Shown here: positions 44,016 through 61,121 of the stretch, piece after piece
How positions within the stretch are numbered: the first letter of the stretch is position 1
Layout: every line of letters begins with the position of its first letter
Assembly (NCBI GenBank): GCA_024742705.1
Contig: JANSXZ010000016.1
Coordinates: 8,617-72,616 of the forward strand
Origin: Paracoccaceae bacterium
Lineage (GTDB): Bacteria; Pseudomonadota; Alphaproteobacteria; Rhodobacterales; Rhodobacteraceae
Direction: 5' to 3'
Length of the DNA stretch: 64,000 nt
Made by a program: the position numbers and the translations under genes
Notes under the pieces: generated by a model
Database searches by the model: none
What the model was told of the DNA's origin: nothing
What the model saw: the letters and a program-made list of their open reading frames with translations, nothing else

Positions 44016-46943
44016 TCAGACACCTTCCTTTGCCGGGGTCGGCACCGATGCCACCGGCGGATCTCCGCGCGAGGGATCGATGTCCATCGGATGCTCGACA
44101 TCCGGCATGTGCGCGCGTCGCGCCAATCTCGAAAAACTCTCCAGCGACAGCATCACCGCGCCCACCACCGTCAGAAACACGCCCAGATCGAACAACATGG
44201 CAGTGGCCAGTTCGAATTCGTTGAACGGCGGGATCCGCACATAGGTGAAATCCGTGGTCATGAACGGTTTGCCCACGAACCATGATCCGATGCCGGTGAG
44301 GCCGGCGATCAGAACGCCGGTTCCGATGATCCCGTGATAGGGATAGCGCAACCGCGCCGAAGCCCAGCCAAAACCGCTGGCCATGTATTGCATCACCACC
44401 GCGATCGACACCACCAGCCCGGCGATGAAACCGCCACCCGGTTCGTTGTGACCACGCAGGAAGATGAAGAACCCGACCATCAGAACCACCGGCATGGTGA
44501 CACGCGTCAGGATCACCATCATCATCGGGTGCATGTCGCCCGCGCGTGGCTGATCCGGCAGCCGGTTCAGAAGCCGCGCCCGCACCGGACCGTTCAGCAA
44601 GGCTTCGGTCAGCGCATAGATCAGCAGCGCGGCAATCCCCAGAACGATGATTTCACCGAAGGTGTCAAAGCCCCGGAAATCCACTAGGATCACGTTGACG
44701 ACATTGGTGCCGCCGCCGCCCTTGTAGGAATTGGCCAGATGGAATTCCGAGATCGGCGTGACAACCGCATCGCGCAGCAGATAGTGATAGGCAAGGGCCG
44801 TCGCCGCCAGCCCGCCCGCAACCGACACCACCGCATCGCGGGTGCGGTGCAGTACCGTGCTTTCGATCGGGGTGCGGTTGGGCAGGAAGTTCAGCGCCAG
44901 AAGCAGCAGGATGATCGTCACCACCTCGACGGTGATCTGCGTCATGGCCAGGTCGGGGGCGCTGAAGAACACGAAGCCCACCGAAACCATCAGGCCGACG
45001 ATGCCGATCAGGATCAGCGACAGCAGCCTGTTGCGGTGCAGGAACACCATGCCCAGCGTCGCCGCCACCAACATCAGCCACCCCGCGATCGCAACCGGAT
45101 CGGCGGGCTGCGGCGCGCGGGTTGCGGGGCCCACGGTTCCGGTGCTCCAGGCATAGTAGCCGACAACAAAGACCGTGACGGCAAACACCGCGCCATAGCG
45201 GGTGAACGCGCCGTTGTGCAGTGGCAGCGCGATGCGCTCGGCCAGCCGGACCACCGCCGCGATCAGACGGTCGAAAATCGCCTTGGCCTCGGGGCGGGGC
45301 GCCGCATCCCAAAGCCGCAGCATCGGCGCGAAGATCGCCATGACGATCAGGCCGCCAACCACCGCGGCGATCGACATATAGAGAGCGGGCACAAGGCCGT
45401 GCCAGATCTTGAAATAGGCCTTCGGCACCTCGGCGGCCTCGCCCAGAACCGATGCGGTAACCAGCTTGACGAAAGGTTCGGCCAGGAACGGCGCAATCCC
45501 GATCACCACCACCATGACCACCAGAATGGCCGGCGGCAGCCACATGCCGGCGCCGGGATCGTGCGGCCTGGCCGGGTAATCGTCACGCACCGGGCCAAGG
45601 AAGGTGTGCCCGATCAGCCGGAAACAATAGGCCGCAGAGAAGAGCGACCCCAGGGTCGCCAGCGCCGGCACCAACCAGGGCGCGCCGTACAATTCGGTGC
45701 GCCAGGCTTCCTCCAGCATCATCTCCTTCGACAGGAACCCGTTCAGCAGCGGAATCCCCGCCATCGACAAAGCCGCGAGGGTTGCGATCACGAATGTCAC
45801 CGGCATCAGCCTGCGCAGACCGCCCAACCGGCGAATGTCGCGGGTATGCGCCTCGTGGTCGACGATGCCCGCCGACATGAACAGCGCCGCCTTGAAGGTC
45901 GCATGGTTGAGGATGTGAAACACCGCCGCCATCGCGCCGAACGCCGTGCCGGTGCCCAGAAGCATGGTGATCAACCCCAGGTGCGACACTGTGGAAAACG
46001 CCAGCAGCGCCTTAAGGTCGTGTTTGAACAACGCGATCACCGCGCCCAGTACCATCGTCACCAGGCCCGCGGTGGTCACGATCACGAACCATTCCGGCGT
46101 GCCCGACAGAACCGGCCACATACGCGCCATCAGGAAAATGCCCGCCTTGACCATTGTCGCCGAATGCAGATAGGCCGAAACCGGTGTGGGCGCCGCCATC
46201 GCGTGCGGCAGCCAGAAATGAAACGGAAACTGCGCCGATTTCGTGAAACATCCCAGCAGGATCAGGATCAGCGCCGGCAGGTACAGCGGCGATTCCTGGA
46301 TCGCCTCGCGGTTTTGCAGGATCACGCTCAGGTCGTAACTGCCGGCGATCTGGCCCAGCATCAGCATCCCGCCGATCATGGCCAGCCCGCCCATGCCGGT
46401 CACGGTCAGTGCCATCCGCGCGCCCTGCCGCCCCTCGGGCAGATGCTTCCAATATCCGATCAGCAGGAAGGACGAAAGCGATGTCAGCTCCCAGAAAACC
46501 AGCAAAAGCAGGATGTTGTCGCTGAGGACAATGCCAACCATCGCGCCCTGGAACAACAGAAGGTAGGTAAAGAATTCGCCCATATTGTCATCACGCGACA
46601 GGTAGAACCGCGCGTAGGTGATGATCAACAGCCCGATCCCCAGGATCAGACAGGCAAAGAAGAAACCCAGCCCGTCCAGCATCAGCGTGACGTTCAGGCC
46701 CAAAAGCGGCAGCCACTCGAAACCGGCGGTCACGACTTGCCCGGACAAGACTGCCGGTGCGTTGGTCAAGAGGCCGATCAGCGCGGCCGCGGTGACGGTG
46801 AAGGTCACGCCGGCACAGGCGGCGCGGCCCGCCGTGTTCATCAACCCCGGCAAAAGCGCGCCGAGAAACGGCAAGGCAACGATAATGAAAAGCGACACGT
46901 CTGCTCCCGATCCTGTCCGGTTCTGGCGCTCTATTTGGGTCAT
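44016..46943 (-). CDS. mnhA: monovalent cation/H+ antiporter fused subunits A and B (NuoL-like)
   Basis: 975 aa. An N-terminal NuoL-like domain plus a C-terminal MnhB domain, the fused PhaAB-type architecture. Confidence 0.88.
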   Translation of the reverse strand: MTQIERQNRTGSGADVSLFIIVALPFLGALLPGLMNTAGRAACAGVTFTVTAAALIGLLTNAPAVLSGQVVTAGFEWLPLLGLNVTLMLDGLGFFFACLILGIGLLIITYARFYLSRDDNMGEFFTYLLLFQGAMVGIVLSDNILLLLVFWELTSLSSFLLIGYWKHLPEGRQGARMALTVTGMGGLAMIGGMLMLGQIAGSYDLSVILQNREAIQESPLYLPALILILLGCFTKSAQFPFHFWLPHAMAAPTPVSAYLHSATMVKAGIFLMARMWPVLSGTPEWFVIVTTAGLVTMVLGAVIALFKHDLKALLAFSTVSHLGLITMLLGTGTAFGAMAAVFHILNHATFKAALFMSAGIVDHEAHTRDIRRLGGLRRLMPVTFVIATLAALSMAGIPLLNGFLSKEMMLEEAWRTELYGAPWLVPALATLGSLFSAAYCFRLIGHTFLGPVRDDYPARPHDPGAGMWLPPAILVVMVVVIGIAPFLAEPFVKLVTASVLGEAAEVPKAYFKIWHGLVPALYMSIAAVVGGLIVMAIFAPMLRLWDAAPRPEAKAIFDRLIAAVVRLAERIALPLHNGAFTRYGAVFAVTVFVVGYYAWSTGTVGPATRAPQPADPVAIAGWLMLVAATLGMVFLHRNRLLSLILIGIVGLMVSVGFVFFSAPDLAMTQITVEVVTIILLLLALNFLPNRTPIESTVLHRTRDAVVSVAGGLAATALAYHYLLRDAVVTPISEFHLANSYKGGGGTNVVNVILVDFRGFDTFGEIIVLGIAALLIYALTEALLNGPVRARLLNRLPDQPRAGDMHPMMMVILTRVTMPVVLMVGFFIFLRGHNEPGGGFIAGLVVSIAVVMQYMASGFGWASARLRYPYHGIIGTGVLIAGLTGIGSWFVGKPFMTTDFTYVRIPPFNEFELATAMLFDLGVFLTVVGAVMLSLESFSRLARRAHMPDVEHPMDIDPSRGDPPVASVPTPAKEGV

Positions 46944-47113: not shown

Positions 47114-48499
47114 GTGAACCACAGTCCACGGGATCTTCCGCAGATCGACGCGCTTCTGGGGCTTGCGGGCATAGATGCGCTGGTGCGCAGGTATTCGCGG
47201 GCCGAAACCGTCGCGGCGCTGCGCGCGGCCACCGGCGCCTTGCGCGCGCGGATGCTGGCCGGCCAGGCGACGGTGCTGCCGGATTTCACGGCGCCGGAAT
47301 TCGCCGAAACCGTCGCGGGGCACATCGCGGCGGCGCGGCGGCCCGCCATGCACCGCGTCGTCAATGCCACCGGCATTCTGATCCACACGAACCTGGGGCG
47401 CGCGCCGCTGGCAGAGGCCGCGCTGGCAGCGGTGGCGCAGGCCGGAGCCGCGCCCGCGACGCTGGAATACGACATCGTCACCGGCGGCCGGGGCGCGCGG
47501 CACGACCATGTGCGCGGCCTGATATGCGATCTGACAGGCGCCGACGACGCGCTGGTCGTCAACAATTGCGCGGCGGCGGTGCTGCTGGCGTTGACGGCGA
47601 CGGCGCGCGGGCGTGGGGTGATTGCATCGCGCGGCGAACTGATCGAGATCGGCGGATCGTTCCGGATGCCCGATGTCATCGCCCAGAGCGGCGCGCGCCT
47701 GATCGAAGTGGGCACCACCAACCGCACCCGGACGGGCGACTATGCCAACGCCATCGACGACGACACCGCCGTTCTGCTGAAAAGCCACACCAGCAACTTC
47801 CGGGTGGTCGGCTTTGCCGAGGCACCCGCGCGCGCCGAACTGGCCGCGCTGGCACGGGCCCGCGGCCTGATCCTGATCGAGGATCTGGGCAGCGGTGTCC
47901 TGGTCGATCTGGCGCGGTTCGGCCTGCGCGAGGAACCGGTGGTGGGCGATGTCCTGCGCGCGGGCGTTGATCTGGTGCTGTTTTCCGGCGACAAGCTGCT
48001 GGGCGGGCCCCAGGCCGGCATCATCGCCGGGCGCGCCGATGTGATCCAGCGGCTCGGGGCGCACCCGCTGGCCCGCGCGCTGCGCATCGACAAGCTGTCG
48101 CTGGCCGCGCTGGCGGCGACGCTGCGGCTGTACCTGCCGCCGCATGATCCCTTGCGCCTGATCCCGGTGCTGCGGATGCTGTCGCAGCCCGCAGACACGG
48201 TGCGGCAGCGGGCCGAAACGCTGGCCGCGATGCTGCCCCGGGCGCTAAAGGTTGCGGTCTGCGCGACCGCCGCCCAGGCCGGTGCCGGATCGCTGCCGCA
48301 ACAGGATCTGCCCAGCTTCGGCTTGCGCGTCAACGCGCCCGGCCTGTCGCCCGACGCGCTGGCCGCCCGGCTGCGCGGCGCCGAAACGCCCATCATCGGG
48401 CGGGTGGCGCGGGGCGCCGTCGTGCTCGACATGCGCGGCGTCGAGGATCACGAATTGCCGCTGATCCGCACCGCGCTCGGGGCGCCGGATATCGCATGA
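47114..48499 (+). CDS. selA: L-seryl-tRNA(Sec) selenium transferase
   Basis: LPQIDALL N-terminus, NNCAAAVLL, and the PLP-Lys motif FSGDKLLGGPQAG. I infer a GTG start at 47114 (GGAAGG 7 nt upstream) from alignment with the E. coli SelA N-terminus as I remember it. Confidence 0.92.
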   Translation: MNHSPRDLPQIDALLGLAGIDALVRRYSRAETVAALRAATGALRARMLAGQATVLPDFTAPEFAETVAGHIAAARRPAMHRVVNATGILIHTNLGRAPLAEAALAAVAQAGAAPATLEYDIVTGGRGARHDHVRGLICDLTGADDALVVNNCAAAVLLALTATARGRGVIASRGELIEIGGSFRMPDVIAQSGARLIEVGTTNRTRTGDYANAIDDDTAVLLKSHTSNFRVVGFAEAPARAELAALARARGLILIEDLGSGVLVDLARFGLREEPVVGDVLRAGVDLVLFSGDKLLGGPQAGIIAGRADVIQRLGAHPLARALRIDKLSLAALAATLRLYLPPHDPLRLIPVLRMLSQPADTVRQRAETLAAMLPRALKVAVCATAAQAGAGSLPQQDLPSFGLRVNAPGLSPDALAARLRGAETPIIGRVARGAVVLDMRGVEDHELPLIRTALGAPDIA

Positions 48500-50364
48500 C
48501 CTCATGCGCGGTGGTTGTGCTGGGCCATGTCGATCACGGCAAATCGGCACTGGTGGAGGCCCTGACCGGCACCCGGACCGACCGCCTGCCCGAAGAGCGC
48601 GCGCGCGGTCTTTCAATCGTGCCCGGCTTTGCCCATTGCGCCTGCGATGCGGGCATCGTCGATCTGATCGACGCGCCAGGCCACCGCGACTTCATCCGCG
48701 CCGTGGTTGCGGGGGCTTCGGGCGCGGCGGCGGCGGTTCTGGTTGTATCGGCGGTCGACGGCCTGCGCGCCCAGACCCTGGAACATCTGGCGATCTCGGG
48801 GTTCCTGGGGCTGATCCCGGCGTTTGTCGCGGTCACGCAGATCGACCGTATCGCGCCGCGCGACCGGCGCGCCTGCCTTGCGCGTATCGCCGGCGCGCTG
48901 GCCGGCACGGGTTTTGCACAGGTGCCGCGCATTGCCTGTTCGGCGGTCACCGGCGAGGGCCTCGGAGATGTGCGCGCCGCGCTTTGCGGCCTGTTGCGGC
49001 GGCCGCCGCCGGATCGAGCCCTTCCGCCCGGCGCGTTCCTGCCGGTCGACCGGGCCTTTGCGCTGCCCGGACGCGGCACCGTTGTCACCGGCACCCTGCT
49101 GGGCGCGCCCCTGGCGCAAGGCGACCGGCTGGTGCTGCATCCCGGCGGCCATGCCGCCCCGGTGCGCGAACTGCACAGCCGCGGAGAACCCTGCGCGCAG
49201 GTGGCCCCCGGCGCGCGGGTGGCTGTCAACCTGCGCGGCGTGGCGCTGGGCGATGTGGCGCGCGGCGCGGTGCTGCATGCACCCGGCGCCGTGCGGCCCG
49301 GACGGTGTGTGGATGTCTGGCTGCGGCTGGGGCCCGGCCCAGACAGCGCGCTGCGGCACATGGACCGGCTGTGGGTGATGTTCGGCGCCACCGGCGCGGT
49401 GGCGCAGGTGCGCCTGCTGGGTGGCGGACAGATGGCCGCCGGCGGGTCCGGGCCGGCGCAATTGCGGTTTGAAACGGCGGTGGTGGCCTACAGCGGGCAA
49501 CATGCGGTGCTGCGCCGGCTTTCGCCCGCCGCGACGATCGGCGGGGCCGTGATCCGCGACCCCGAGGCGACCCCAGCGCGCGCCGGCGATACCGAACGCG
49601 CCGCGCTGTTGCGGGCGGCAGAAACCGGCGATGCCGGGCGCATCGCCGCCGCGCTGATCGATGCGGGCCGCGGCATCGCCGACCGCGCGCATCTGGCACG
49701 GCTGATCCCCGGCCTGCCGAACGCGCTGCCCCGCGGGTATGTGGTGGTGCAGGGCGATCGGTTCGTCAGCGGCGATGCACTGGCCGCCTGCCGCGCCGAT
49801 CTCTGCGCGCGGTTGCAGACTGCCCACGACCTTGCGCCACTGAAACCGCTGGTGCCGCGCGCCGCCCTGCACGACAGGACGTGGCCCGCGCCGCTCTGGC
49901 GGGCGGCCGAAGCCGATCTGATCCGCGATGCGCGAGTGCGTGCCGCCGACGCGGGGCTGGCGCTGGCCGGCCATGACCCCGACGCCCGGATCACCCCCGC
50001 CCAGCGCGCCCGCCAGCACGCCATGGCCCGTGCCCTTCTGGAAGGCGGTCTTGCGCCGCCCACGCCAAAGGAGCTGTGCGCCGATGAAACCGACACCGAT
50101 CTTCTGGCGCTGCTGATCGCGGGCGGCACGGCCGTGGCCCTGCGCAATGTCGCGCTGAACCGGACGCTGGTGTTTCACCATGAGACGCTGAACACCGCCG
50201 CGCGCACCCTGCGCACCGCCTTCGCCCGGCCCTTCACCACCGGCGAGGCGCGCGGCGCGCTGGCCACCACGCGTCGGGTCATCGTGCCGGTTCTCGAACA
50301 TCTCGATGCGCGCGGCCTGACCGAACGCAGCGGCGATCTGCGCCGGTGGGCCGGGCCGCGCTGA
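48496..50364 (+). CDS. selB: selenocysteine-specific translation elongation factor
   Basis: G1 GHVDHGKS and G3 DAPGH, then a long C-terminal winged-helix extension. Its ATG overlaps the selA stop (ATGA). Confidence 0.92.
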   Translation: MTSCAVVVLGHVDHGKSALVEALTGTRTDRLPEERARGLSIVPGFAHCACDAGIVDLIDAPGHRDFIRAVVAGASGAAAAVLVVSAVDGLRAQTLEHLAISGFLGLIPAFVAVTQIDRIAPRDRRACLARIAGALAGTGFAQVPRIACSAVTGEGLGDVRAALCGLLRRPPPDRALPPGAFLPVDRAFALPGRGTVVTGTLLGAPLAQGDRLVLHPGGHAAPVRELHSRGEPCAQVAPGARVAVNLRGVALGDVARGAVLHAPGAVRPGRCVDVWLRLGPGPDSALRHMDRLWVMFGATGAVAQVRLLGGGQMAAGGSGPAQLRFETAVVAYSGQHAVLRRLSPAATIGGAVIRDPEATPARAGDTERAALLRAAETGDAGRIAAALIDAGRGIADRAHLARLIPGLPNALPRGYVVVQGDRFVSGDALAACRADLCARLQTAHDLAPLKPLVPRAALHDRTWPAPLWRAAEADLIRDARVRAADAGLALAGHDPDARITPAQRARQHAMARALLEGGLAPPTPKELCADETDTDLLALLIAGGTAVALRNVALNRTLVFHHETLNTAARTLRTAFARPFTTGEARGALATTRRVIVPVLEHLDARGLTERSGDLRRWAGPR

Positions 50365-50433
50365 CAGGGGCGCCGCTGGACAATGCGGCCACTGCGCGCG
50401 ATGCTGAACCCGATCACAGCCGGAGACCGCAGC

Positions 50434-52026
50434 ATGCCCACCACACCGCCAACCGCCCTGAGCCTCGCGGATCTGTCCGGCCACCCCCACGACCTGCCGC
50501 CCGCGGGCGCCGCGCTGATCTGTTTCGTCAAGGATGATTGCGAAACCTGCAATGTCGCGGCGCCGGTTCTCGGGGCGCTGCACCGGGCCTTCGGCGCGGA
50601 TGTCGCGGTGCGGGTCGTGGCCCAGTCGGGCGCCGCCAACCAAGCCTTTGCCCGGCGCCACGCGCTGGAGATGCCGGTTCTGGACGACACCGCGCTGCGG
50701 GCCGCCTTCACCTGGGACATCGAGGCGGTGCCATCGGTTTTTCTGCGCGACGCCGACGGCGCCACCGTCACCCGGTTCGAAGGATTCGTGCGCGACGACT
50801 GGCAGGCGCTGGCCGGACGGCTTGCCGAGATGACGGCCCGGCCCGCCGCGCAGATCGATTGGGACAGCCTGCCGGCCTGGCGTCCGGGCTGCGGATCGGC
50901 CCATCTGGACCCGGCGGTGAACAACCGGTTGCGCGCCGAAGCCGATGACAGCCCGATCCGCGCCCGCCGGATCGAGGTGGCACCAGCCGACGACATGGCC
51001 GAATTCCTGTTCGACCAGGGGTTCTCGGACGGTTTGCCCCTGGTGCCGCCAACACCCGAACGGGTGCTTCGGATGCTGGGCGGCACACACCGCGACCCGC
51101 AGGAGATCGTTGCCACCGTGCCCCCCAACATGGGCATCGCCACCGTCGAGAAGATCGCGATCAACGCCGTCATGGCCGGATGCAAGCCAGAGTACCTGCC
51201 GGTGGTGATCGCGGCGGTCGAAGCGGTCTGTACCGATGCCTTCAATGTCCATGGCGTCACCGCGACGACCATGGGCGCATCTCCGGTGATGGTGGTGAAC
51301 GGGCCGATCCGCGACCGTATCGGCATGAACAAGGGCCTTGGCGCGCTGGGTGCGGGCAACCGCGCGAATGCCACCATCGGACGCGCGCTGCGGTTGGTCG
51401 TGCGCAATGTGGGCGGCGCGTCCAGCGGCGGTGTCGAACGGTCGACGCTGGGCAATCCGATGAAGTTCACCATGTGCTTCGCGGAATGGGAGGAACGTTC
51501 GCCATTTCCGCCGTTGCATGTGGAACGCGGGTTCGACGCCGGCGATTCCGTGGTGACCGTGTTTGCCATGACCGGCGGCCCGGTGCACATCGTCGATCAG
51601 ACCTCGCGCAGCCCCGATCAGGTGGCCGGATCGCTGGGCCAGGGGCTGGAATCCGTTTTCCTGCCGAAGATGCACAACCTGCCCATCGACGCGCTTCTGG
51701 TGGTGTGCCCCGAACATATCGACACGCTGACGCGCGACGGCCCCTACAGCAAGGAGCGCCTGCGCGCGCGGATTCAGGATGTCACCTCGCGGCCGTTGTC
51801 CGAGATGCTGGCCGATGCGGCATCCGGCGCCGGCATCGGCCCCGAGGACGCCGCCCGGCTGGGCCCCGAGGCGCTGGCCGCGCCGGCGCCGAAATTCGCC
51901 AGCACCGATTACATCCACATCGTTGTCGCCGGATCCGATGCGGGCAAGTTCTCGTCGGCGTTCCACGGATGGGTCACCGGGCCGACGGGATCGACGGTGG
52001 TTTCGCGCAAGATCGATCTGGGCTAG
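50434..52026 (+). CDS. thioredoxin-fold (CxxC) domain protein with a large uncharacterised C-terminal domain
   Basis: The N-terminal roughly 150 aa are redoxin-like with ICFVKDDCETCN (CxxC). The remaining roughly 380 aa (GFSDGLPLVPPTPERVL..., AINAVMAGCKPEYLP) match no family I can name. GGAG lies 8 nt before the ATG at 50434. Confidence 0.8.
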   Translation: MPTTPPTALSLADLSGHPHDLPPAGAALICFVKDDCETCNVAAPVLGALHRAFGADVAVRVVAQSGAANQAFARRHALEMPVLDDTALRAAFTWDIEAVPSVFLRDADGATVTRFEGFVRDDWQALAGRLAEMTARPAAQIDWDSLPAWRPGCGSAHLDPAVNNRLRAEADDSPIRARRIEVAPADDMAEFLFDQGFSDGLPLVPPTPERVLRMLGGTHRDPQEIVATVPPNMGIATVEKIAINAVMAGCKPEYLPVVIAAVEAVCTDAFNVHGVTATTMGASPVMVVNGPIRDRIGMNKGLGALGAGNRANATIGRALRLVVRNVGGASSGGVERSTLGNPMKFTMCFAEWEERSPFPPLHVERGFDAGDSVVTVFAMTGGPVHIVDQTSRSPDQVAGSLGQGLESVFLPKMHNLPIDALLVVCPEHIDTLTRDGPYSKERLRARIQDVTSRPLSEMLADAASGAGIGPEDAARLGPEALAAPAPKFASTDYIHIVVAGSDAGKFSSAFHGWVTGPTGSTVVSRKIDLG

Positions 52027-52052
52027 CGTGATCGCGAAAGGAGGAGAAGCAT

Positions 52053-52571
52053 ATGACAACAATTCTCGACCCGACAGACGAACGCGAACCCGTCGCGCGG
52101 CAGACAACGCCGCGCCCGACGGATCTGCGCGGCGTTGTCGGACTGCTGGACATCAGCAAACCGCGCGGCAATGTCCTGCTGGACGAACTGGCGCGGCTGC
52201 TGACGGACCATGCGCCGGGGCTGGAAGTGCGGCGCTACAAGAAGCCGACCTTTACCAAACCCTGCCCGGATGCGCTGCGCCAGCAGATCCGCGACGAATG
52301 CGATTTCGTCGTCGAAGGTCTGGCCGACTGAGGATCCTGTACGACGTGCAGTATGCACGACACAGTCTGGTTTGAAATCCAGAACATTCCTTCGGTCTCG
52401 GTCGCCTCGGCGGTGTTCGACGAAGCCGCCGATCACCAGCGCCGCGCACTGGGCATGGACGACGCCCGCTATGTGCTGGTGCCGCATCCGATCCAGGATG
52501 CCACCGATGACGAGATGCGCGCCAAGGCACAGGATGCCGTAAGCCGCATCCTGGCCGCGCTGACAGCGTGA
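52053..52571 (+). CDS. selenoprotein with a U-G-S-C motif (UGSC-type); the in-frame UGA at 52329-52331 is read as selenocysteine
   Basis: Track ORFs 52053..52331 and 52353..52571 are in the same frame (offset 300 nt). Read-through gives ...FVVEGLAD-U-GSCTTCSMHDTVWFEIQNIP... with unbroken GC3-rich codon usage, a SECIS-like hairpin just downstream, a strong AAGGAGGA RBS, and selA/selB directly upstream. Confidence 0.85.
52335..52370 (+). promoter_or_regulatory. bacterial SECIS-like stem-loop
   Basis: Core CGUGCA-GUA-UGCACG (52345-52359) is extended by CUGU/ACAG (52337-40 / 52362-65). The apical G and U lie at +20/+21 from the UGA, the same spacing and near-identical upper stem as I recall for E. 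coli fdhF (GCAGGUCUGCAC). Confidence 0.75.
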
Positions 52572-52576
52572 CACGC

Positions 52577-52605
52577 GCCGGCCCCACCTTCGGGATGGGG
52601 GCGGC
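52577..52605. terminator. GC-rich hairpin between the convergent selenoprotein and giant exoprotein genes
   Basis: GCCG-G-CCCCA / loop CCTTCGGGA / TGGGG-G-CGGC: 9 bp with one mismatch and no U-tract on either strand. Confidence 0.35.
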
Positions 52606-52613
52606 GCAGCCCG

Positions 52614-55600
52614 TCAGATGACGATCATATCGGCGGTGATATCGGCCAGAACGGTGTTCTGGAACTGAATCCGTGTGCCCTGATCTTCGAAGGACACATA
52701 GGCATCCTGCCCTTCGAACAATTGCGGCCCCTGCGAGAACAGCGCCAGCACGGCATCGGCATCGGCGTAGCCAAAGCCGTTGAAGGCCAGGGTATCCCAG
52801 GTTTCCAGATCTTCCACCTGGTGGCTGCCCCCGTCGGCCTGATCGAACACGAACTGATCCGACAGAATGCCGCCGCGCAGGATGTTGTCCCCGCCCCCGC
52901 CATCGAGAACGTCGTCGGTGCCCTGTGCCCTGACCCAGGCGGCCACGTCGGCGTTGGTGGCGGCGATGAACTCGGGGCTCTGCGAGAACCCGCGCACCAC
53001 CTCGACACGCGAAAGGCCCCCGTCCATCAGCGCCAGCCAGCTGGCCACTTCCGCATCGGCGGGCGAACGGCCCAGAACGTTGTTGTAGAGCAGCGACACG
53101 AACGCCGTGTCATCGAGCGCACCGTAGGTCAGTCCGAATTCGTCCGACGCGGTGAAACCTCCGACAACGCTCAGGAATTCGGTGCCGCCGGCCAGTTGCG
53201 TGGCCCAGCCCGTCAGCCCGGCCACATCCGGTTCGCGGTCCAGCGTCGCCTTGTAGAGACGGAACACGTCGTCGGTCCAGTAGCTGCTGGCGCTTTGCTG
53301 GATGAAAACGTCGAACGACGCGGTGGTCTGCGCCTCGAATTCGGGGCTGAGCGACAGGCCCAGAACGACACCTTCGCGCGACCCGCCGTTCGCCAACTGT
53401 TCAAGCCAGCCGTTCAGGCCGGTTTCGTCCGCCGACCGGCCCAGCACGTTCTGATAGAGCGTTTCGATAAAGCTGCGGTCGTCCAGCGTTCCGTAGGTTT
53501 TCAGGAACTCCTGCGAGGTGATGAAGGCGGTTGTGATCTCGGGCAGCGGCAGGTTGCGGAACTGGCTGCCGTAATCCATCCATCCCGCAAAGCCCACCGC
53601 ATCCGGGTCACGATCCAGCGTGGCGCGGTACAGCCTGTAAAGCTGGGCGCCGGGCAGACCTTCATAGCGGAACAGCCCGCGCAGATCGCCCGAAAGCTCA
53701 TCGCTGCTTTCGGCAAGGTCGCTGCCGATCAAAAGGTCGTTGCCGCCGTTCCCGACCAGAACGTTGCGAACGTTCTGGGAATCGGGGGACGGCGCAGCGA
53801 TCAGCCGTTCGGCTTCGGGCGTGCCCATGGCCAGAAAGACATTGTTGGCATCCGGTGTCGCGCGCAATTCGGGACGGGCGGCAATGCCCGAAAGGGTTTC
53901 AGAGAACACCGCGCCCGTACCGCCGAACGCATCGGTTGTCTGCACCAGAACCGAAATCGCTGCCCCGGCATCTGCCAGGTTCAGCGTATAGGTCTGGTCT
54001 GTGGCGCCCGAGATCTGCACCCCGTTGCGCTGCCACTGATAGGTGGTTTCGGTGATCCCGTCCTCGTCGGTCAGGTCGGGTCGGGCGGTCACGGTGCTGC
54101 CTTCGACGGCGGGGCCGGTGATCCGCACCGTGCCGGTCAGCGGATCGTCGCGGTTGCTCACCGCTTGCGTCGGCAGCGACGTGACCGTTTCCAGCGTGCC
54201 TGCTGCGTCGGTATAGCTGACGCGCACGGAAATCTGTGCGTTCACATCCGGCTGGCGCAGCTGATAGGTTGCTTCGGTCGCGCCGGGGATGGGCGTGCCG
54301 CCGCGCAGCCATTCGTAGGAAAACGCGCCAATTCCATCGACGTCGCGCAGATCGGTCAGAACCCTCAGGGTATCGTCTTCCCGGGCAGTGCCCGACACGG
54401 AAACGGTGCCTTCGGGTTCGTCGTTGACATCGACAACAGGTTCGGTGCGCGCGGAATCCACTTCTTCGCGGGTCGACTGATCATCGGTGTAGGCAACGGT
54501 GACAGAGATCCTCTGGCCCACGTCCTGCTGGGTGGTGGTATAGGTGGCATCGGTCGCGCCCGCGATGGCCGCATCGCCGCGCTTCCACTGATAGGAAAAC
54601 GCGCCGCTGATACCGTCGCTGTCACTCAGCCCGGAGGCATCCGCCGACAGGACCGCCCCCTGCACCGCATCGCCACTCAGGATAACCTCGCCAACGGGCA
54701 GGTCGTTGATGTTGCGCACCACCTGACCGGGCGAGGATTCCACCGTTTCCTCGGTCCGGAAAAGATCGGTGTACCGCGCCTGAACGGTCACCCGCGCGCC
54801 CACGTCCGCCTGCCCCAGCGTATAGCTGGTGCCGGTGGCACCGGACACCGGATCGCCATCGCGCAGCCACTGATAGGTAACGTCTTCGGGCCGGAAGGTA
54901 TCGTAATCGGTCAAGGTCGAGATATCGGCGGTAAGAACCGCGTCTTCGATCCTTTCGCCGGACACACCTACAGAACCGATGGGCGTATGGTTGCGCCCCA
55001 CGCCTTCCAGCGTCAGCGTGCCGCCGTCGTGAAAGGTGATGAACCTGTTGCCATCGCCGTCCAGCGTGACCTGCATCTGCGCAAGCTGATCGAGGGTGAA
55101 GCCGCTCAGGTCGATTGAATCGCGGCTTTGCTGATAATCGGTGATGACATCGTTGCCGTCCCCCGGAGCGAAGACGAACGTGTTGCCCGTGCTGAACGAG
55201 GTGCCGCCCGACAACCGGTCGTCGCCGGTGCCGCCGATCAGCGTGTCAGACCCGCTGCTGCCGGTGATCGTGTCGTTGCCGGCCTGGCCGTCCAGCCTGT
55301 CATCGCCCGCGTCGCCCTGCACCGAATCGTCGGCCTGGGTACCGGTGAAGGCGTCGTTGCCGTTGCCCATGTCGATGATGTCGAACACCTCGTAGGACGT
55401 GATCCCGGAGAGATCGAAGGTATCCGCGCCATCGGTGCCGTCGAGATCGCCGTTCACCAGGTCCAGCCTTTCGATCGCCGCCGATGCCGGCAGGTTGATC
55501 TGCTGAAACAAGCCTTCGGTCGGGCGATACAGGTCTTCTCCGGCGCCGCCGTTCAACGTGTCGTCGCCACCGTGGCCCAGAATGGTATCGTCGCCGCCGC

Positions 55601-57709: not shown

Positions 57710-58756
57710 ATGATCCTTACCCTGCGCTCTCTGCGGCATCTGGCCGACCTGGAATTCGACGATGTCATCGACGTGCGCGCGCCGGCCGAGTTCGCCCAGG
57801 ACCGCCTGCCCGGCGCGATCAACCTGCCGGCGCTCGACGATGACCAGCGCGCGCGGGTTGGCACGATCTATGTTCAGCAAGACAGGTTCGTGGCCCGCAA
57901 GATCGGGGCCGCGATGCTGGCCCGCAATGTCGCCGCACATCTGGACGGCGCGTTGGCCGACCGTGACGGCGGCTGGCGGCCATTGGTGTATTGCTGGCGC
58001 GGCGGGCAGCGGTCGGGCGGCTTTGCTACCATTCTCGAACAGATCGGATGGCGCGTGGTCCGGCTGGACGGTGGTTACAAACGCTACCGGCGTCTGGTTG
58101 TCGATATGCTTTACAAAGATCCGCTGCCGCACCGGCTGATCCTTGTGGCGGGCGGCACCGGCACGGGCAAGACCGCGGTTCTGGCCCGGCTGGAGGCGGC
58201 GGGCGCGCAGGTCGTCGATCTCGAGGCACTGGCCGCGCATCGCGGATCGCTGTTCGGCGCAGAACCTGGCGGACAACCGGCACAAAAGCTCTTTGAAACC
58301 GGCCTGGCGGCACGGCTGGCAGCCTGTGACCCGGCGCGCCCGGTGTTCATCGAAGCCGAAAGCAACAAGATCGGGCGGCTGACCCTGCCGCCAGCGCTGT
58401 GGGACGCGATGAAATCCGCCGAGGCCGTCGTTCTGGACGCACCGCTTGGGGCGCGCGCGGCCTTCCTGACCCGGCAATACGGCGAAAGGTGGGGTCCGCC
58501 CGAACGGCTTTTGCCCAAGCTTGACGCGCTGCGGCCGTTTCACCCTGCCGACCGCATCGCGCAGTGGCAGATCATGGCCCGCAAGACCCGGCTGGAACCC
58601 TTGGTCGCGGATCTGATCCGCCATCATTACGATCCGCGCTATGCGATGCCGGGACCGGCGCGCGCCGCAGCGCCTGTGCATGTCGCCCTGCCCGATCTCT
58701 CTGACGCCAGCCTGGATGCGGCCTGCGCCACGGTTCTGGCCCAGGTCACACGATAA
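57710..58756 (+). CDS. selU: tRNA 2-selenouridine synthase
   Basis: Rhodanese domain with VIDVRAPAEF and the catalytic VYCWRGGQRSG, followed by the P-loop GGTGTGKT; 348 aa. Confidence 0.92.
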   Translation: MILTLRSLRHLADLEFDDVIDVRAPAEFAQDRLPGAINLPALDDDQRARVGTIYVQQDRFVARKIGAAMLARNVAAHLDGALADRDGGWRPLVYCWRGGQRSGGFATILEQIGWRVVRLDGGYKRYRRLVVDMLYKDPLPHRLILVAGGTGTGKTAVLARLEAAGAQVVDLEALAAHRGSLFGAEPGGQPAQKLFETGLAARLAACDPARPVFIEAESNKIGRLTLPPALWDAMKSAEAVVLDAPLGARAAFLTRQYGERWGPPERLLPKLDALRPFHPADRIAQWQIMARKTRLEPLVADLIRHHYDPRYAMPGPARAAAPVHVALPDLSDASLDAACATVLAQVTR

Positions 58757-60914
58757 CGGTCGGCGGCCCCGCTTCGAAACGCCCGATCACCGCCGCCCGG
58801 TGGCCCGCCGCGCACAGGGCGGCAACCGCCGGTGCGGCCGCTTCAGGCGGCATCGCGGCCAGAAGGCCCCCGGCCGTCTGCGGATCGTGCAGCAAGACCG
58901 GCCCGGCCCCACCCGTTGCCCCGGCATTGGCCGCGAACAACGTCGAGCGCACACCAGCCTTGGCCGCCTGCGCCGCGCCATCATAGAGCGGCACCGCCGG
59001 CCAATCGACGCGCGCGGCAACCTCGCTGGCCCGGCAAATCGCAAGAAGGTGCCCCGACAGCCCGAAGCCGGTGACATCCGTCATCGCCCGCGCCCCGGCC
59101 AGAAGCCGCGCGGCATCGTCCTGCGGGGTCTGCATGATATCGAGCATGGCGATCACGTCGGCGCCGCGCGCGCGCCCGGCCATTTCCGCCGCCAGCAGCG
59201 TGCCGCTGCCCAACGGCCGGGTCAGCACGATGCAATCGCCCGGACGCGCCCCGCGATGGGTCAGCGTCTGCGCCCCGGCCAGCCCGGTCAGCGCGAAGCC
59301 CAGGCTCATCTCTGCGCCGGTCATGCTGTGGCCACCCACCACATCCGCCCCGGCCGCGCGCAGAACGTCGCCGGCGGCCTGCATCACCTCGGCCCAGACC
59401 CGCGCCTGAATGGCCGGCGCCATCGGCGGCAGGATCACCGTGGCCAGCGCCGCCTGCGGCGCCGCCCCCATCGACCAGATATCGCCCAGCGCATGCACCG
59501 CCGCGATGCGGGCAAACCGCCGCGGATCGGCGGTGAAGGCGCGCAGGTGATCGGTGGTGAAAACCTGCCGGCCAGTCCCACCCCAGCGCAAAACCGCCGC
59601 ATCGTCGCCCGGCGCCGACAGCACATCGTCGCGCCGCATGTCGGGCAGGCCGTGCAGGCCATCGGCCAGAACCGCACCACCGATCTTCGATCCGCAACCG
59701 GCACAGATCGGTCGGCCACCGCGCATTTCCGCCGCCACCCCCTGCGCCGCCGTCCGCGGCGGCCGCGGGGCGGGCATCGGCGGCAGATCGGTCAGCTTGT
59801 CCATGAACCGCCGGTCGATGCGGTCCTTCCAGCGCCACAACGCCGGCGCGGCCAACGTCAGGCCGAATTTTTCCCCCAGCGCCGACTGGCCACCCAGCGA
59901 CACCAGCTTCAGATAATGCCGCTGCGGGCGGAACCGGCGCAGCGGCGCCCCGGTCAGCGCCGCCCGCAGGTTGGCATGAAGCACGGGCGCCGCGCGCACC
60001 GCGAACACGCCGGCCTTGGGGCGCGGGCTGGCCTGCATGTGCGCGCAGTCACCCACCGCGAACAGCCCGCGCCATCCCGGCACAGCAAGGTCCGGGCCGA
60101 CACGGATGAAACCGTCGTTCAGCGGCAGATCGGTATCGCCCAGCCAGGGCCACGGTGTGGCCCCCGCCGCGCCGACGGTAAATTGCGACGGCAGCTCGCG
60201 GCCATCGGCAAGCTGAACGCCGTCCGCCGCGATCCGCGCGACCGGCACGCCGGTCTGGACGGTGACGCCCAGCCGCTCCATCGCGTGCCGGACATGCAGA
60301 CGGGCGCGCGCGCCCATGCCTGTCAGGCCCGGCGCCGCCTCGATCACCCGCACCCGCGATCCCGGCGCCGGGCCGCGCAGGGCGTGGGCCATCGCCAGCG
60401 CCAGTTCACAGCCGGCCACGCCGCCGCCGATCACCGCCACCTGCACCGGCGCGCCGGTATCGGCCGCGCGCGCCAGGAACCCGCGCCAGGCATCGGCAAA
60501 TCGGTCCAGCGGCTTGGCCCCGATGGCATGATCGGCAAATCCCGGAAGGGCCGGCATTTCGGCGGTTATGCCGATGTCGATACTGGCGACGTCGTAGGGC
60601 ACCGGTGCGCCTTGGGCCAGCCGCACAACGCGCGCTTCCGGATCGACATGCACCGCACGATCCACCAGCAGCCGCGCGCCGGCGAAACGCGCCAGCCGCA
60701 CCAGATCGATGTCCAGCGCACCGCGCCCATAGTGCCCGGCCACATGCCCCGGCAACATCCCGGTATAGGGCGCATCGGGCGCCGGGTTGATCACTGTCAC
60801 CCGCACCCCGGCCAACGGGTTCATGCCCCAGCGGCGCAAAACCAACGCATGTGCGTGGCCGCCACCCACCAGAACCAGATCGCGGGTGACGGGCACCGGC
60901 ATCGTCTGTTGCAT
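58746..60914 (-). CDS. selD: FAD/NAD(P)-dependent pyridine-nucleotide-disulfide-type oxidoreductase fused to selenide, water dikinase
   Basis: N-terminal LVLVGGGHAH and a second VAVIGGGVAGCE dinucleotide-binding motif (about 350 aa), then a SelD core beginning ICAGCGSKIGG (Cys/Lys active-site loop) and AIR-synthase-like domains. ATG at 60914 with a GGAGAC RBS. The upstream 58 codons of the track ORF are rejected. Confidence 0.88.
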   Translation of the reverse strand: MQQTMPVPVTRDLVLVGGGHAHALVLRRWGMNPLAGVRVTVINPAPDAPYTGMLPGHVAGHYGRGALDIDLVRLARFAGARLLVDRAVHVDPEARVVRLAQGAPVPYDVASIDIGITAEMPALPGFADHAIGAKPLDRFADAWRGFLARAADTGAPVQVAVIGGGVAGCELALAMAHALRGPAPGSRVRVIEAAPGLTGMGARARLHVRHAMERLGVTVQTGVPVARIAADGVQLADGRELPSQFTVGAAGATPWPWLGDTDLPLNDGFIRVGPDLAVPGWRGLFAVGDCAHMQASPRPKAGVFAVRAAPVLHANLRAALTGAPLRRFRPQRHYLKLVSLGGQSALGEKFGLTLAAPALWRWKDRIDRRFMDKLTDLPPMPAPRPPRTAAQGVAAEMRGGRPICAGCGSKIGGAVLADGLHGLPDMRRDDVLSAPGDDAAVLRWGGTGRQVFTTDHLRAFTADPRRFARIAAVHALGDIWSMGAAPQAALATVILPPMAPAIQARVWAEVMQAAGDVLRAAGADVVGGHSMTGAEMSLGFALTGLAGAQTLTHRGARPGDCIVLTRPLGSGTLLAAEMAGRARGADVIAMLDIMQTPQDDAARLLAGARAMTDVTGFGLSGHLLAICRASEVAARVDWPAVPLYDGAAQAAKAGVRSTLFAANAGATGGAGPVLLHDPQTAGGLLAAMPPEAAAPAVAALCAAGHRAAVIGRFEAGPPTVIV

Positions 60915-61121
60915 CGCTTCGTCTCCGCCCGTTGCCCCGATCCGCCCGTACCGTGCCCGCATCACCCCACCACCGGCAAGCCGATCAGGCCGGTTTTTTT
61001 CGCCCGTCACGCGATAGGGGCACGCCGGCACAGGCGTTTCGCCGCTGTACCAAACAAGGCAGTTGAAAAACCGCCTCTGGCCAGCCATGCTGATACGAAT
61101 TCAAGTCAGGGATGGTTGTTC

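What the first reader, a model, noticed from the sequence alone, without database searches (positions are those of the whole stretch)
47114..52571. selA-selB co-oriented and tightly packed with an uncharacterised two-gene redox module (Trx-domain protein plus selenoprotein)
Four same-strand genes are closely packed: an ATGA overlap, then gaps of 69 and 26 nt. They are selA, selB, a 530-aa protein with an N-terminal thioredoxin-fold CxxC (DDCETC) and a roughly 380-aa C-terminal domain I cannot assign, and the UGSC selenoprotein with its own strong RBS. Having the Sec-insertion machinery in one apparent operon with its client and a CxxC partner suggests a dedicated thiol/selenol redox pair of unknown substrate. 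I am not aware of a described function for this pairing.
Basis: inference. Interest (0 to 1): 0.8.

Follow-up and report, generated by a model that had tools for sequence, protein, structure and literature searches.

The report
Conserved selenoprotein UGSC and partner enzyme
The window carries a widespread but uncharacterised two-gene enzyme module, the UGSC selenoprotein plus a thioredoxin-fused protein whose fold has no solved relative, sitting beside the genes that make selenocysteine; the pairing is conserved across many bacterial phyla, which gives an old orphan selenoprotein family a testable partner.

Summary
selA, selB, a 530-aa protein and the UGSC selenoprotein lie head-to-tail on the + strand. 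They show the stated ATGA overlap and gaps of 69 and 26 nt. An in-frame TGA and a SECIS hairpin are present.

UGSC is already a named family of unknown function (NCBIfam NF041046, Pfam PF24696). What I did not find in the nine papers that mention UGSC is its near-obligate partner.

- **Adjacency.** The about 380-aa C-terminal domain of the 530-aa protein is followed by a UGSC gene in 76 of 80 genomes. These span Proteobacteria, Chloroflexota, Actinomycetota, Myxococcota, Acidobacteriota and others. Stand-alone versions of the domain have a UGSC gene next to them in 62 of 80 metagenome loci.
- **Fusions.** The two proteins are fused in both orders in other lineages.
- **Sec usage.** Every UGSC copy examined uses TGA.
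- **Structure.** The partner domain models at pLDDT 95 but has no Pfam or NCBIfam model and no significant PDB match. UGSC is flavodoxin-like, not thioredoxin-like. It shows remote profile similarity to GrdB/PrdB-type selenoproteins, with Sec aligned on Sec.

Best reading: a two-subunit, selenocysteine-dependent reductase recycled by its fused CxxC domain, with the substrate unknown. Linkage to selA-selB is lineage-specific, in about 8 of 80 genomes. In this window it forms a selenium island together with selU and an Ndh-SelD fusion.

The parts
47114..48499 (+). selA, L-seryl-tRNA(Sec) selenium transferase (GTG start; alternative ATG at 47030)
   Evidence: TIGR00474 scores 550.6 bits against a cutoff of 267.9, and PF03841 scores 470.6 bits. 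The alternative start comes from the gene call on the identical contig L001.
48496..50364 (+). selB, the Sec-specific elongation factor; its ATG overlaps the selA stop (ATGA)
   Evidence: TIGR00475 is the best hit at 221 bits, below the cutoff of 242. GTP_EFTU and the SelB winged-helix domain PF09107 are above threshold.
50434..50835 (+). N-terminal thioredoxin-fold domain of the 530-aa protein, with CxxC (C36, C39) at 50539-50550; no signal peptide or membrane anchor
   Evidence: Weak ResA hit (E 2.4e-4) and AhpC-TSA hit (E 3.2e-4) to residues 26-118. C36 is kept in 75 and C39 in 74 of 81 aligned homologues, usually as DCPTC.
50881..50898 (+). Linker motif R-P-G-C-G-S (C153) between the thioredoxin domain and the C-terminal domain
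   Evidence: P151, G152, C153 and G154 are each conserved in at least 95% of the aligned sequences; C153 itself is kept in 79 of 81. The motif lies in the low-confidence N-terminal stretch of the model (pLDDT 58), so it is probably flexible.
50899..52026 (+). C-terminal domain of about 375 aa with no family model and no solved structural relative; conserved Cys C250 (51181-51183) and C348 (51475-51477)
   Evidence: No Pfam or NCBIfam hit even at E<=10. No PDB match by sequence profile. AlphaFold2 gives pLDDT 95 and pTM 0.92, and Foldseek against PDB finds nothing at E<=0.001, with all TM scores below 0.3. The family has 5297 representative clusters. C250 is kept in 79 of 81 and C348 in 74 of 81.
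52040..52046 (+). Ribosome-binding site GGAGGAG of the UGSC gene
   Evidence: Read directly from the sequence, 6 nt upstream of ATG 52053.
52053..52571 (+). UGSC family selenoprotein, 172 aa, with U93 in LAD-U-GSC-TTC-S-M-HD
   Evidence: NF041046 scores 165.6 bits (cutoff 125) and PF24696 scores 169.1 bits. A model of a 52%-identical homologue has pLDDT 92.8 and a flavodoxin-like beta-alpha fold.
52329..52331 (+). In-frame TGA read as selenocysteine
   Evidence: Translation. The same position is TGA in all 76 genome loci with a UGSC gene and in all 62 metagenome loci with one.
52337..52365 (+). SECIS-type hairpin; the core stem-loop CGUGCA-GUA-UGCACG lies at 52345-52359
   Evidence: Single-sequence fold. 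RNAalifold on 77 loci shows that all five core pairs form in 77 of 77 loci. One pair varies among GC, GU and AU, and one locus has a CG to UA double change. The apical loop begins with G, 22 nt after the U of UGA.
52575..52607 (+). G+C-rich hairpin just after the UGSC stop, between convergent genes; it has no T-run
   Evidence: Fold energy is -28.7 kcal/mol with a z-score of only -1.8. The terminator scan did not call it. This evidence is weak.
57710..58756 (+). selU, tRNA 2-selenouridine synthase; part of the same selenium island
   Evidence: tblastn finds 57% identity over 345 aa to the SelU gene that neighbours the module in L084, which carries Rhodanese and AAA_SelU Pfam domains.
58746..61088 (-). 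Fusion of a Pyr_redox_2 (NADH dehydrogenase-like) domain with selenophosphate synthetase SelD, Cys type (…CAGCGSK…)
   Evidence: tblastn finds 58% identity over 684 aa to the Pyr_redox_2 plus AIRS fusion next to the module in L084. Translation. This fusion type is described in PMC2398784.

Best explanation
Genes three and four encode the two subunits of one selenocysteine-dependent enzyme, most likely a reductase.

- **Large subunit.** The roughly 375-aa C-terminal domain of the 530-aa protein is the substrate-binding or catalytic partner. Its conserved residues include C250, C348 and several Arg, Asn, Glu and His.
- **Small subunit.** UGSC is a flavodoxin-like protein. It presents a selenol/thiol pair (U93-x-x-C96) at the end of a beta-strand and the start of a helix.
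- **Docking.** UGSC probably docks on the large subunit through its conserved but unstructured N-terminal peptide (ILDPT.E).
- **Recycling.** During turnover the Sec/Cys pair would be oxidised to a selenenylsulfide. It would then be re-reduced by the fused cytoplasmic thioredoxin-fold CxxC (C36, C39), possibly through C153 in the flexible RPGCGS linker.
- **Precedent.** This logic matches the selenoprotein B and PrdB components of glycine reductase and D-proline reductase, to which UGSC appears remotely related.

The substrate is unknown. In this organism the module is co-located, and plausibly co-transcribed, with selA and selB, which supply its essential Sec residue.

Shown here: gene order, family membership, the Sec codon and SECIS, conserved pairing and fusions, the lack of a known relative for the large domain, and the fold type of UGSC. 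Inferred: subunit contact, the electron path, and the reductase activity.
For: **Pairing**
- 76 of 80 genomes from at least eight phylum-level groups have UGSC directly downstream on the same strand. Gaps are 6-222 nt, with one of 689 nt.
- The stand-alone domain subfamily has a UGSC-family gene adjacent in 62 of 80 metagenome loci, and in 42 of the 49 with at least 800 nt on both sides.
- No third gene is conserved around either set.

**Fusions**
- 20 of the 150 best representative proteins fuse the domain to UGSC, 10 in each order.
- Domain-then-UGSC calls stop exactly at ...ALAD, the Sec position. Many UGSC-then-domain calls begin just after it.

**Reductant module**
- About 74 of 80 genome homologues carry the thioredoxin domain with a conserved CxxC and the RPGCG linker.
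- One representative (P0149) carries a ferredoxin:thioredoxin-reductase catalytic domain (CPC...CPC...CHC) in its place.

**Sec dependence**
- TGA is present in all 76 genome loci and all 62 metagenome loci that have a UGSC gene, and the SECIS stem is kept in 77 of 77 loci.
- The GOS survey counted 255 Sec forms against 21 Cys forms (PMC2398784).

**Relation to GrdB/PrdB**
- hhalign of 77 UGSC sequences against 25 GOS GRDB-type sequences gives probability 79%, E 1.6e-5, score 40.7 and 104 aligned columns, with Sec aligned on Sec.
- Reversed and 20 column-shuffled controls score 9.6-19.7.
- GrdB, GrdF and GrdH carry UxxCxxC (PMC6778437 and PMC13188914).

**Fold**
- UGSC is beta-alpha x5, with Sec at the beta3/helix junction.
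Against: - No activity, substrate or phenotype is known for any member.
- No structural model of the complex could be inspected, so proximity of U93 to C153, C36/C39 or C250 is untested.
- The GrdB/PrdB link is a remote profile match (79% probability) built on metagenomic read fragments. Pfam GRDB itself does not hit UGSC.
- The large domain shows no similarity to GRDB-type sequences and no Pfam hit of any kind, including glycine-reductase families. The analogy therefore does not extend to the partner.
- The third Cys of UxxCxxC (C99) is G or W in paralogous subfamilies. Its codon lies in the SECIS stem, so its conservation here may be an RNA constraint rather than a protein one.
- Co-transcription with selA-selB is inferred only from spacing and from the absence of consensus signals.
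Confidence: 0.5

Rival explanations
1. The module is an accessory of selenium metabolism itself. It would capture, reduce or recycle selenium (selenite, selenotrisulfides or free selenocysteine) and hand it to SelD, rather than act on an unrelated metabolite.
For: - In this window and in relatives the module sits within a selenium island: selA and selB upstream, with selU and an Ndh-SelD fusion nearby.
- L004 also has SelD next to selA.
- UGSC is almost never found in a Cys form (PMC2398784).
- The linker RPGCGS resembles the ...AGCGSK... active-site loop of the SelD fusion in the same window.
- PurM-type folds, including SelD, appear among the non-significant Foldseek hits of the large domain.
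Against: - sel genes are near the module in only about 8 of 80 genomes and in none of the 80 metagenome loci.
- Selenoprotein genes often travel with sel genes for reasons of co-inheritance.
- The Foldseek hits have TM about 0.13 and E above 0.02, which is noise level.
- The motif resemblance covers only four residues.
- A selenoprotein needed to make selenoproteins raises a bootstrap problem, though SelD itself is sometimes a selenoprotein.
Confidence: 0.15
2. It is a general antioxidant or thiol-peroxidase system, as public annotations suggest ('peroxiredoxin', 'TlpA family protein disulfide reductase'), with UGSC as the peroxidatic selenol.
For: - Weak AhpC-TSA and Redoxin Pfam hits on the N-terminal domain of this and related proteins.
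- Sec/Cys and CxxC motifs are typical of peroxide-reducing selenoproteins.
- Source names are listed.
Against: - The AhpC-TSA hit scores 21.1 bits, below the gathering score of 26. The ResA hit scores 21 bits against a cutoff of 170.
- The motif is thioredoxin-type DCxTC, not a peroxiredoxin peroxidatic site.
- UGSC is flavodoxin-like, not a thioredoxin, GPx or Prx fold.
- This reading gives no role to a highly conserved 375-aa domain with many invariant Arg, Asn, Glu and His residues.
Confidence: 0.12
3. It handles a metal or metalloid. The U/C-rich site (U93, C96, C99, H102, D103), together with C153, C250 and C348, would bind or transform Hg, As, Cu, Te or an Fe-S cluster.
For: - The spacing UxxCxxC followed by H-D resembles metal-binding or cluster-binding motifs.
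- Several other orphan bacterial selenoproteins are predicted metal-binding proteins (PMC13188914).
- Conserved Cys, His and Glu residues are present in the large domain.
Against: - C99 is replaced by G or W in large paralogous subfamilies that keep Sec, so a three-ligand site is not general.
- No metal-resistance or transport genes are conserved nearby.
- A fused thioredoxin or FTR-type domain points to disulfide or selenosulfide turnover.
Confidence: 0.1
4. The four genes are neighbours only by chance or by co-transfer, and the 530-aa protein and UGSC work independently.
For: Only the tight spacing in one window, which on its own proves nothing.
Against: Adjacency is conserved in 76 of 80 and 62 of 80 loci across distant phyla, and the two proteins are fused in both orders.
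Confidence: 0.03

Closest known systems
UGSC family (seleno)protein (NCBIfam NF041046, Pfam PF24696; the 'UGSC-containing protein' of Zhang and Gladyshev, PMC1976440 and PMC2398784)
   Same: The window protein is a full member. Both HMMs score above their cutoffs, and it has the U-G-S-C motif, an in-frame TGA and a SECIS hairpin. As in the literature, Sec forms vastly outnumber Cys forms.
   Different: Nothing differs in the protein itself. The published prediction of a thioredoxin-like fold is not borne out: the model is flavodoxin-like. Apart from a 2008 remark on a fusion to 'Unknown_1', the nine papers that mention UGSC do not describe a conserved partner gene.
Selenoprotein B of glycine/sarcosine/betaine reductase and PrdB of D-proline reductase (Pfam PF07355 GRDB)
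   Same: Sec lies in a UxxC(xxC) motif directly after a beta-strand, followed by a helix and an E..GI(P/S)TV strand. There is remote profile similarity with Sec aligned on Sec. These proteins work with a second, substrate-binding subunit, and in glycine reductase with the thioredoxin system.
   Different: UGSC has 172 aa against about 240-440 aa. There is no Pfam GRDB hit. The partner is not a GrdE/PrdA pyruvoyl proprotein but an unrelated domain with no solved relative. No GrdA or GrdC was found nearby. The hosts include lineages not known for Stickland-type fermentation, such as Rhodobacteraceae and Acidimicrobiia (host physiology is from my general knowledge and was not tested here).
TlpA/ResA/DsbE-type thiol-disulfide oxidoreductases
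   Same: The N-terminal 135 residues have the thioredoxin fold and a CxxC at the expected place. This is how public databases name the whole protein.
   Different: Scores are far below the family cutoffs. There is no signal peptide or membrane anchor, so the protein is cytoplasmic rather than extracytoplasmic. It is fused to a 375-aa domain that makes up most of the protein. The public name describes a quarter of the protein.
Selenium-utilisation gene clusters (selA, selB, selD, selU located next to a selenoprotein gene)
   Same: The Sec-insertion genes lie next to a client selenoprotein gene, as is often seen for formate dehydrogenase. The Ndh-SelD fusion with a CxxC is the type described in marine metagenomes (PMC2398784).
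   Different: The client here is an orphan two-gene module. The linkage is restricted to some lineages. selC was not found in the window.

Membership tests
UGSC family (NF041046 / PF24696) | Family HMM score above the curated cutoff | tested here: met
   NF041046 scores 165.6 bits against 125, and PF24696 scores 169.1 against 25.
UGSC family (NF041046 / PF24696) | U-G-S-C motif with Sec encoded by an in-frame TGA | tested here: met
   TGA at 52329-52331 within LAD-U-GSC. The same is seen in 76 of 76 and 62 of 62 related loci.
UGSC family (NF041046 / PF24696) | Bacterial SECIS hairpin shortly downstream of the UGA, with G in the apical loop | tested here: met
   The hairpin lies at 52345-52359, and its five pairs are kept in 77 of 77 loci.
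SelB (TIGR00475) | Family HMM above cutoff, plus the C-terminal SelB winged-helix domains | tested here: inconclusive
   TIGR00475 scores 221 bits, below the cutoff of 242.25, but it is by far the best hit. PF09107 scores 44.9 against 23.2. The gene is adjacent to, and overlaps, selA.
TlpA/ResA thiol-disulfide oxidoreductases | Thioredoxin fold with a CxxC active site | tested here: met
   Weak ResA alignments cover residues 28-118. The CxxC is conserved in 74-75 of 81 homologues.
TlpA/ResA thiol-disulfide oxidoreductases | Family HMM score above the curated cutoff | tested here: not met
   NF002854 scores 21 bits against 170.
TlpA/ResA thiol-disulfide oxidoreductases | Extracytoplasmic location (signal peptide or membrane anchor) | tested here: not met
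   The protein starts MPTTPPTALSLADLSGHPHDLPP... and runs straight into the first strand of the fold, with no hydrophobic N-terminal segment. This is based on sequence inspection only; no predictor was run.
Peroxiredoxin (AhpC/TSA, PF00578) | Pfam score above gathering, and a peroxidatic Cys in a PxxxT/SxxC context | tested here: not met
   The score is 21.1 bits against 26. The motif is FVKDDCETC, a thioredoxin-type CxxC.
GrdB/PrdB selenoproteins (PF07355 GRDB) | Pfam GRDB hit | tested here: not met
   No hit at E<=10. The Pfam model mostly covers the part N-terminal to the Sec.
GrdB/PrdB selenoproteins (PF07355 GRDB) | Sec in UxxC(xxC) at the homologous position of an alpha/beta core | tested here: inconclusive
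   hhalign gives probability 79% and E 1.6e-5 with Sec aligned on Sec, and shuffled controls score far lower. The template profile was built from 25 metagenomic read fragments.
GrdB/PrdB selenoproteins (PF07355 GRDB) | Partner subunit is a GrdE/PrdA-type pyruvoyl proprotein | tested here: not met
   The conserved partner has no Pfam hit at all and no similarity to GRDB-type sequences.
GrdB/PrdB selenoproteins (PF07355 GRDB) | Reductive cleavage of an amino-acid C-N bond | not testable with these tools
   This needs biochemistry.

The most novel reading that the evidence does not exclude
The UGSC selenoprotein and its partner domain form a previously unrecognised class of two-subunit, obligately selenocysteine-dependent enzyme. 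The class is spread across many bacterial phyla and is fused into one chain in lineages whose low-complexity, eukaryote-like sequence suggests algae (not tested). Its large subunit has a fold with no solved relative. It would catalyse a reductive reaction not yet assigned to any gene, possibly on an abundant marine or soil metabolite, which would explain why UGSC is one of the commonest selenoproteins in aquatic metagenomes.
Probability: 0.4. Interest if true: 0.85.

Novelty: new variant of a known kind. Interest (0 to 1): 0.62.

Why it matters
[quoted passage not shown] It is still described as being of unknown function.

Three results make the problem experimentally tractable:

- UGSC almost always comes with one specific partner protein.
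- The two are fused in some lineages.
- The partner often carries its own thioredoxin-type reductant.

The pair can be co-expressed, mixed selenosulfides can be trapped, and substrates can be screened. Cultured hosts such as Sulfitobacter can be knocked out.

The work also corrects two database habits. The large protein is named after a quarter of its length. UGSC genes are usually truncated at the Sec codon.

If the remote link to GrdB/PrdB holds, Sec-dependent reductive chemistry would extend from anaerobic amino-acid fermenters to widespread aerobic marine and soil bacteria.

Tried and rejected
1. **Sequence search of the 530-aa protein and a 62-sequence profile of its C-terminal domain against PDB chains.** Only weak ResA hits to the N-terminus and designed helical repeats were found.
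2. **Foldseek of the high-confidence C-terminal domain model against PDB.** The best hits were cyanuric acid hydrolase ('Toblerone' fold), class I fumarase, PrpD/IRG1 and PurM-type proteins including SelD. All had E above 0.02 and TM below 0.3, so I treated them as noise.
3. **Pfam and NCBIfam at E<=10, and scans of all 62 alignment members.** There is no model for the C-terminal domain.
4. **Reading Figure S1A of PMC2398784 to check whether 'Unknown_1' is this domain.** The panel is held only as an image, and motif searches in the supplements found nothing.
I used P0276, a 52%-identical database homologue with Cys at the Sec position, instead.
6. **A search for a third conserved gene around the pair.** Only lineage-specific synteny was found: acyl-CoA dehydrogenase, family III CoA-transferase, MutY-like and ABC ATPase genes in at most 18 of 80 loci.
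7. **hhalign of the C-terminal domain against GRDB-type sequences.** No similarity was found.
8. **tRNA-Sec and Rfam scans of the window.** Nothing was found.
9. **A model of the complex.** I did not attempt one.

Full report
**Observation**

The region 47114-52571 holds four + strand genes, exactly as described.

- **selA** runs from GTG 47114 to 48499. An alternative ATG at 47030 is used by one public gene call. It matches TIGR00474 at 550.6 bits.
- **selB** (48496-50364) starts with the ATG of an ATGA overlap with the selA stop. TIGR00475 is its best hit, slightly below cutoff. The SelB winged-helix domain is above threshold.
- **The 530-aa protein** begins at 50434 after 69 nt.
- **The UGSC gene** begins at 52053 after a further 26 nt, preceded by GGAGGAG at 52040-52046. 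It reads through a TGA at 52329-52331 in ...EGLAD-U-GSCTTCSMHD... and ends at 52571.
- No promoter-like or terminator-like site lies inside the block. This is compatible with one transcript but does not prove it.
- An independent public contig has the identical layout.

**What the parts are**

*UGSC.* It is a full member of a named family. NCBIfam NF041046 ('UGSC family (seleno)protein') scores 165.6 bits against a cutoff of 125, and Pfam PF24696 scores 169.1 bits. The family was reported in 2007-2008 as a selenoprotein of unknown function (PMC1976440; PMC2398784). It was then one of the most abundant in GOS metagenomes, with 255 Sec forms against 21 Cys forms. A 2026 review still lists it as uncharacterised (PMC13188914).

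*The 530-aa protein.* Databases name it 'TlpA family protein disulfide reductase' or 'peroxiredoxin'. Only residues 26-118 match such families, and weakly: ResA at 21 bits against a cutoff of 170, and AhpC-TSA at 21.1 against 26.

- Residues 150-530 have no Pfam or NCBIfam model even at E<=10.
- They have no sequence relative in PDB.
- The domain is very common, with 5297 representative clusters at 50% identity and 1365 of them below 1e-30.
- An AlphaFold2 model built on 62 diverse sequences is very confident (pLDDT 95, pTM 0.92).
- Foldseek against PDB returns nothing at E<=0.001, and all TM scores are below 0.3.

On this evidence it is an alpha/beta domain without a solved relative.

**Is the pair real?**

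I scanned one genome per species with a profile of the C-terminal domain and kept 80 loci. They came from Alpha-, Beta- and Gammaproteobacteria, Dehalococcoidia and other Chloroflexota, Acidimicrobiia and other Actinomycetota, Myxococcota, Vicinamibacteria, Binatia and a spirochaete.

- In 76 of the 80 loci a UGSC gene follows directly on the same strand. Gaps are 6-222 nt, with one of 689 nt.
- The four exceptions have no UGSC within the fetched flanks.
- A second scan with stand-alone (about 350 aa) versions of the domain returned 80 metagenome loci. A UGSC-family gene is adjacent, upstream or downstream on the same strand, in 62 of them. Among the 49 loci with at least 800 nt on both sides, 42 have one.
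- No third gene is conserved in either set.

Independent support comes from fusions. Among the 150 best representatives, 10 are UGSC-then-domain and 10 are domain-then-UGSC. The domain-then-UGSC gene calls end exactly at ...ALAD, the residue before Sec. Many UGSC-then-domain calls begin just after the Sec codon. The functional link between the two proteins is therefore very well supported.

**Selenocysteine**

- Every UGSC gene examined has TGA at the U position: 76 of 76 genome loci plus the window, and 62 of 62 metagenome loci.
- Database entries are mostly 94-aa N-terminal fragments. The few 'full-length' ones carry W, G or R at that codon, and one (P0276) carries Cys.
- A hairpin 17-31 nt after the UGA (window 52345-52359) keeps all five pairs in 77 of 77 loci. 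One pair varies among GC, GU and AU, one locus shows a double change, and the apical loop begins with G.
- The stem is made of the codons for T98-C99-S100-x-H102, so protein and RNA constraints overlap there. In paralogous UGSC subfamilies the residue corresponding to C99 is G or W while Sec and C96 remain. The general redox motif is therefore D-U-G-S-C, not UxxCxxC.

**Fold and relatives of UGSC**

A model of P0276, which is 52% identical to the window protein, has pLDDT 92.8. It is five beta-alpha units, with Sec at the end of strand 3 and the start of a helix.

Foldseek gives generic flavodoxin-like hits at E about 1e-4 and TM 0.4-0.5: flavodoxins, a corrinoid-binding domain and CheY-like domains. 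The fold is not thioredoxin-like, as had been guessed in 2008.

The local pattern is strand, Sec-x-x-Cys, helix, then E..GIP(S/T)V. It resembles the GOS 'PrdB/GrdB' sequences.

- GrdB, GrdF and GrdH are known for a UxxCxxC motif.
- hhalign of 77 UGSC sequences against 25 such sequences gives probability 79%, E 1.6e-5 and score 40.7 over 104 columns, with Sec on Sec.
- A reversed template and 20 column-shuffled templates score 9.6-19.7.
- Two of three template sequences tested hit Pfam GRDB.

I regard remote homology as probable, not proven. The large domain shows no similarity to these sequences.

**Conserved chemistry**

| Region | Residue | Conservation |
|---|---|---|
| Thioredoxin domain | C36, C39 (usually DCPTC) | 75 and 74 of 81 |
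| Linker (R-P-G-C-G) | C153 | 79 of 81 |
| Large domain | C250 (AVMAGC) | 79 of 81 |
| Large domain | C348 | 74 of 81 |
| UGSC | U93, C96, C99 | 77 of 77 each |
| UGSC | H102, D103 | at least 95% of 77 |

- The linker lies in the low-confidence, probably flexible start of the model.
- Many Arg, Asn, Glu and His residues in the large domain are also conserved.
- The first 27 residues of UGSC are predicted to be disordered yet contain invariant D6, P7 and T8. The same peptide is kept in the fusions. This suggests a docking peptide.
- One representative, P0149, replaces the thioredoxin domain with a ferredoxin:thioredoxin-reductase catalytic domain. That fits a role of the N-terminal module as the reductant.

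**Most likely mechanism**

This mechanism is inferred. The large domain binds the substrate. The Sec/Cys pair of UGSC carries out a two-electron reductive step and becomes a selenenylsulfide. The fused CxxC re-reduces it, perhaps through C153. This is how selenoprotein B and PrdB-type reductases are thought to work with thiol reductants.

I put this at about 0.5. The substrate is unknown.

Rivals:

- **A role in selenium trafficking to SelD (0.15).** It is favoured by the selenium island here and in L084 and L004. It is weakened because sel genes are nearby in only about 8 of 80 genomes and in none of the 80 metagenome loci.
- **A peroxidase or antioxidant system (0.12).** This rests only on sub-threshold Prx hits.
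- **A metal or metalloid-handling site (0.10).** It is weakened by the loss of C99 in paralogues.
- **Chance adjacency.** This is excluded for the pair.

**Context in the window**

- Upstream on the - strand lies a 975-aa membrane-protein ORF at 44016-46943. I take it to be Mrp antiporter subunit A-like from its sequence; it was not searched.
- Downstream on the - strand lies a 1641-aa repeat protein (52614-57539).
- Next come selU (57710-58756, + strand) and an Ndh-SelD fusion (58746-61088, - strand).
- In L084 the same selD and selU genes directly follow UGSC. The repeat protein therefore looks like an insertion into a selenium island.
- No tRNA-Sec gene was detected.

**Verdict**

- The selenoprotein is a known, named orphan family, and the window's copy is an ordinary member.
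- What goes beyond the literature I could find is threefold: the near-universal two-gene (or fused) unit with a domain that has no family model or solved relative, the flavodoxin-like fold, and the probable distant link to GrdB/PrdB.
- I rate it a new variant of a known kind, namely Sec-dependent, thiol-recycled reductases, and of moderate to high interest.

Noticed in passing
window 57710-58756 (+) and 58746-61088 (-): selU and a Pyr_redox_2 (NADH dehydrogenase-like)-SelD fusion (Cys type, ...CAGCGSK...) lie 5-9 kb downstream. Together with selA, selB and the UGSC module they form a selenium island. In L084 the same two genes directly follow UGSC.
   Followed up: partly
window 52614-57539 (-): A 1641-aa repeat-rich protein with Asp/Gly-rich repeats (it looks RTX-like or cadherin-like to me) sits between the UGSC module and selU/selD. 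Relatives have nothing at this position, so it looks like an insertion into the island. No family search was run on it.
   Followed up: no
window 52345-52359; loci L002-L081: The SECIS stem is built from the codons for T98-C99-S100-x-H102. RNA structure and protein sequence therefore constrain the same bases. In paralogous UGSC subfamilies the third Cys is G or W, while Sec and the second Cys stay.
   Followed up: yes
window 50881-50898 and about 59640 (- strand SelD loop): The invariant linker motif RPGCGS of the 530-aa protein resembles the AGCGSK selenium-binding loop of the SelD fusion in the same window. It also echoes the U-G-S-C motif itself. This may be coincidence.
   Followed up: no
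protein P0149 (representative search): This homologue of the large domain carries an N-terminal ferredoxin:thioredoxin-reductase catalytic domain (CPC...CPC...CHC; it hits the NCBIfam 'FtrB family double-selenoprotein' model) in place of the thioredoxin domain.
   Followed up: partly
proteins P0154, P0166, P0172, P0173, P0224, P0228, P0255: These domain-then-UGSC fusions have low-complexity linkers and a hydrophobic, membrane-like insertion before the last strand of the large domain. They look eukaryotic, possibly algal. All are truncated at the Sec codon.
   Followed up: no
L026 9810-11923; L088, L099, L106, L124, L154: Some loci carry two or three tandem paralogues of the large domain, and sometimes two UGSC genes, in a single cluster.
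   Followed up: no
database hits: Public gene calls almost always split UGSC at the TGA into a 92-94-aa N-terminal fragment and a 73-aa C-terminal fragment. The 'full-length' entries carry W, G or R at the Sec codon. Family size and the Cys/Sec ratio in databases are therefore distorted.
   Followed up: partly
window 44016-46943 (-): A 975-aa multi-pass membrane-protein ORF lies directly upstream and divergent from selA. I judge it to be Mrp/Mnh antiporter subunit A-like from its sequence alone. The 170-nt intergenic region would have to hold the selA promoter.
   Followed up: no
window 52575-52607: A G+C-rich hairpin (-28.7 kcal/mol) without a T-run lies between the convergent UGSC and repeat-protein genes. 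Its z-score is only -1.8.
   Followed up: partly
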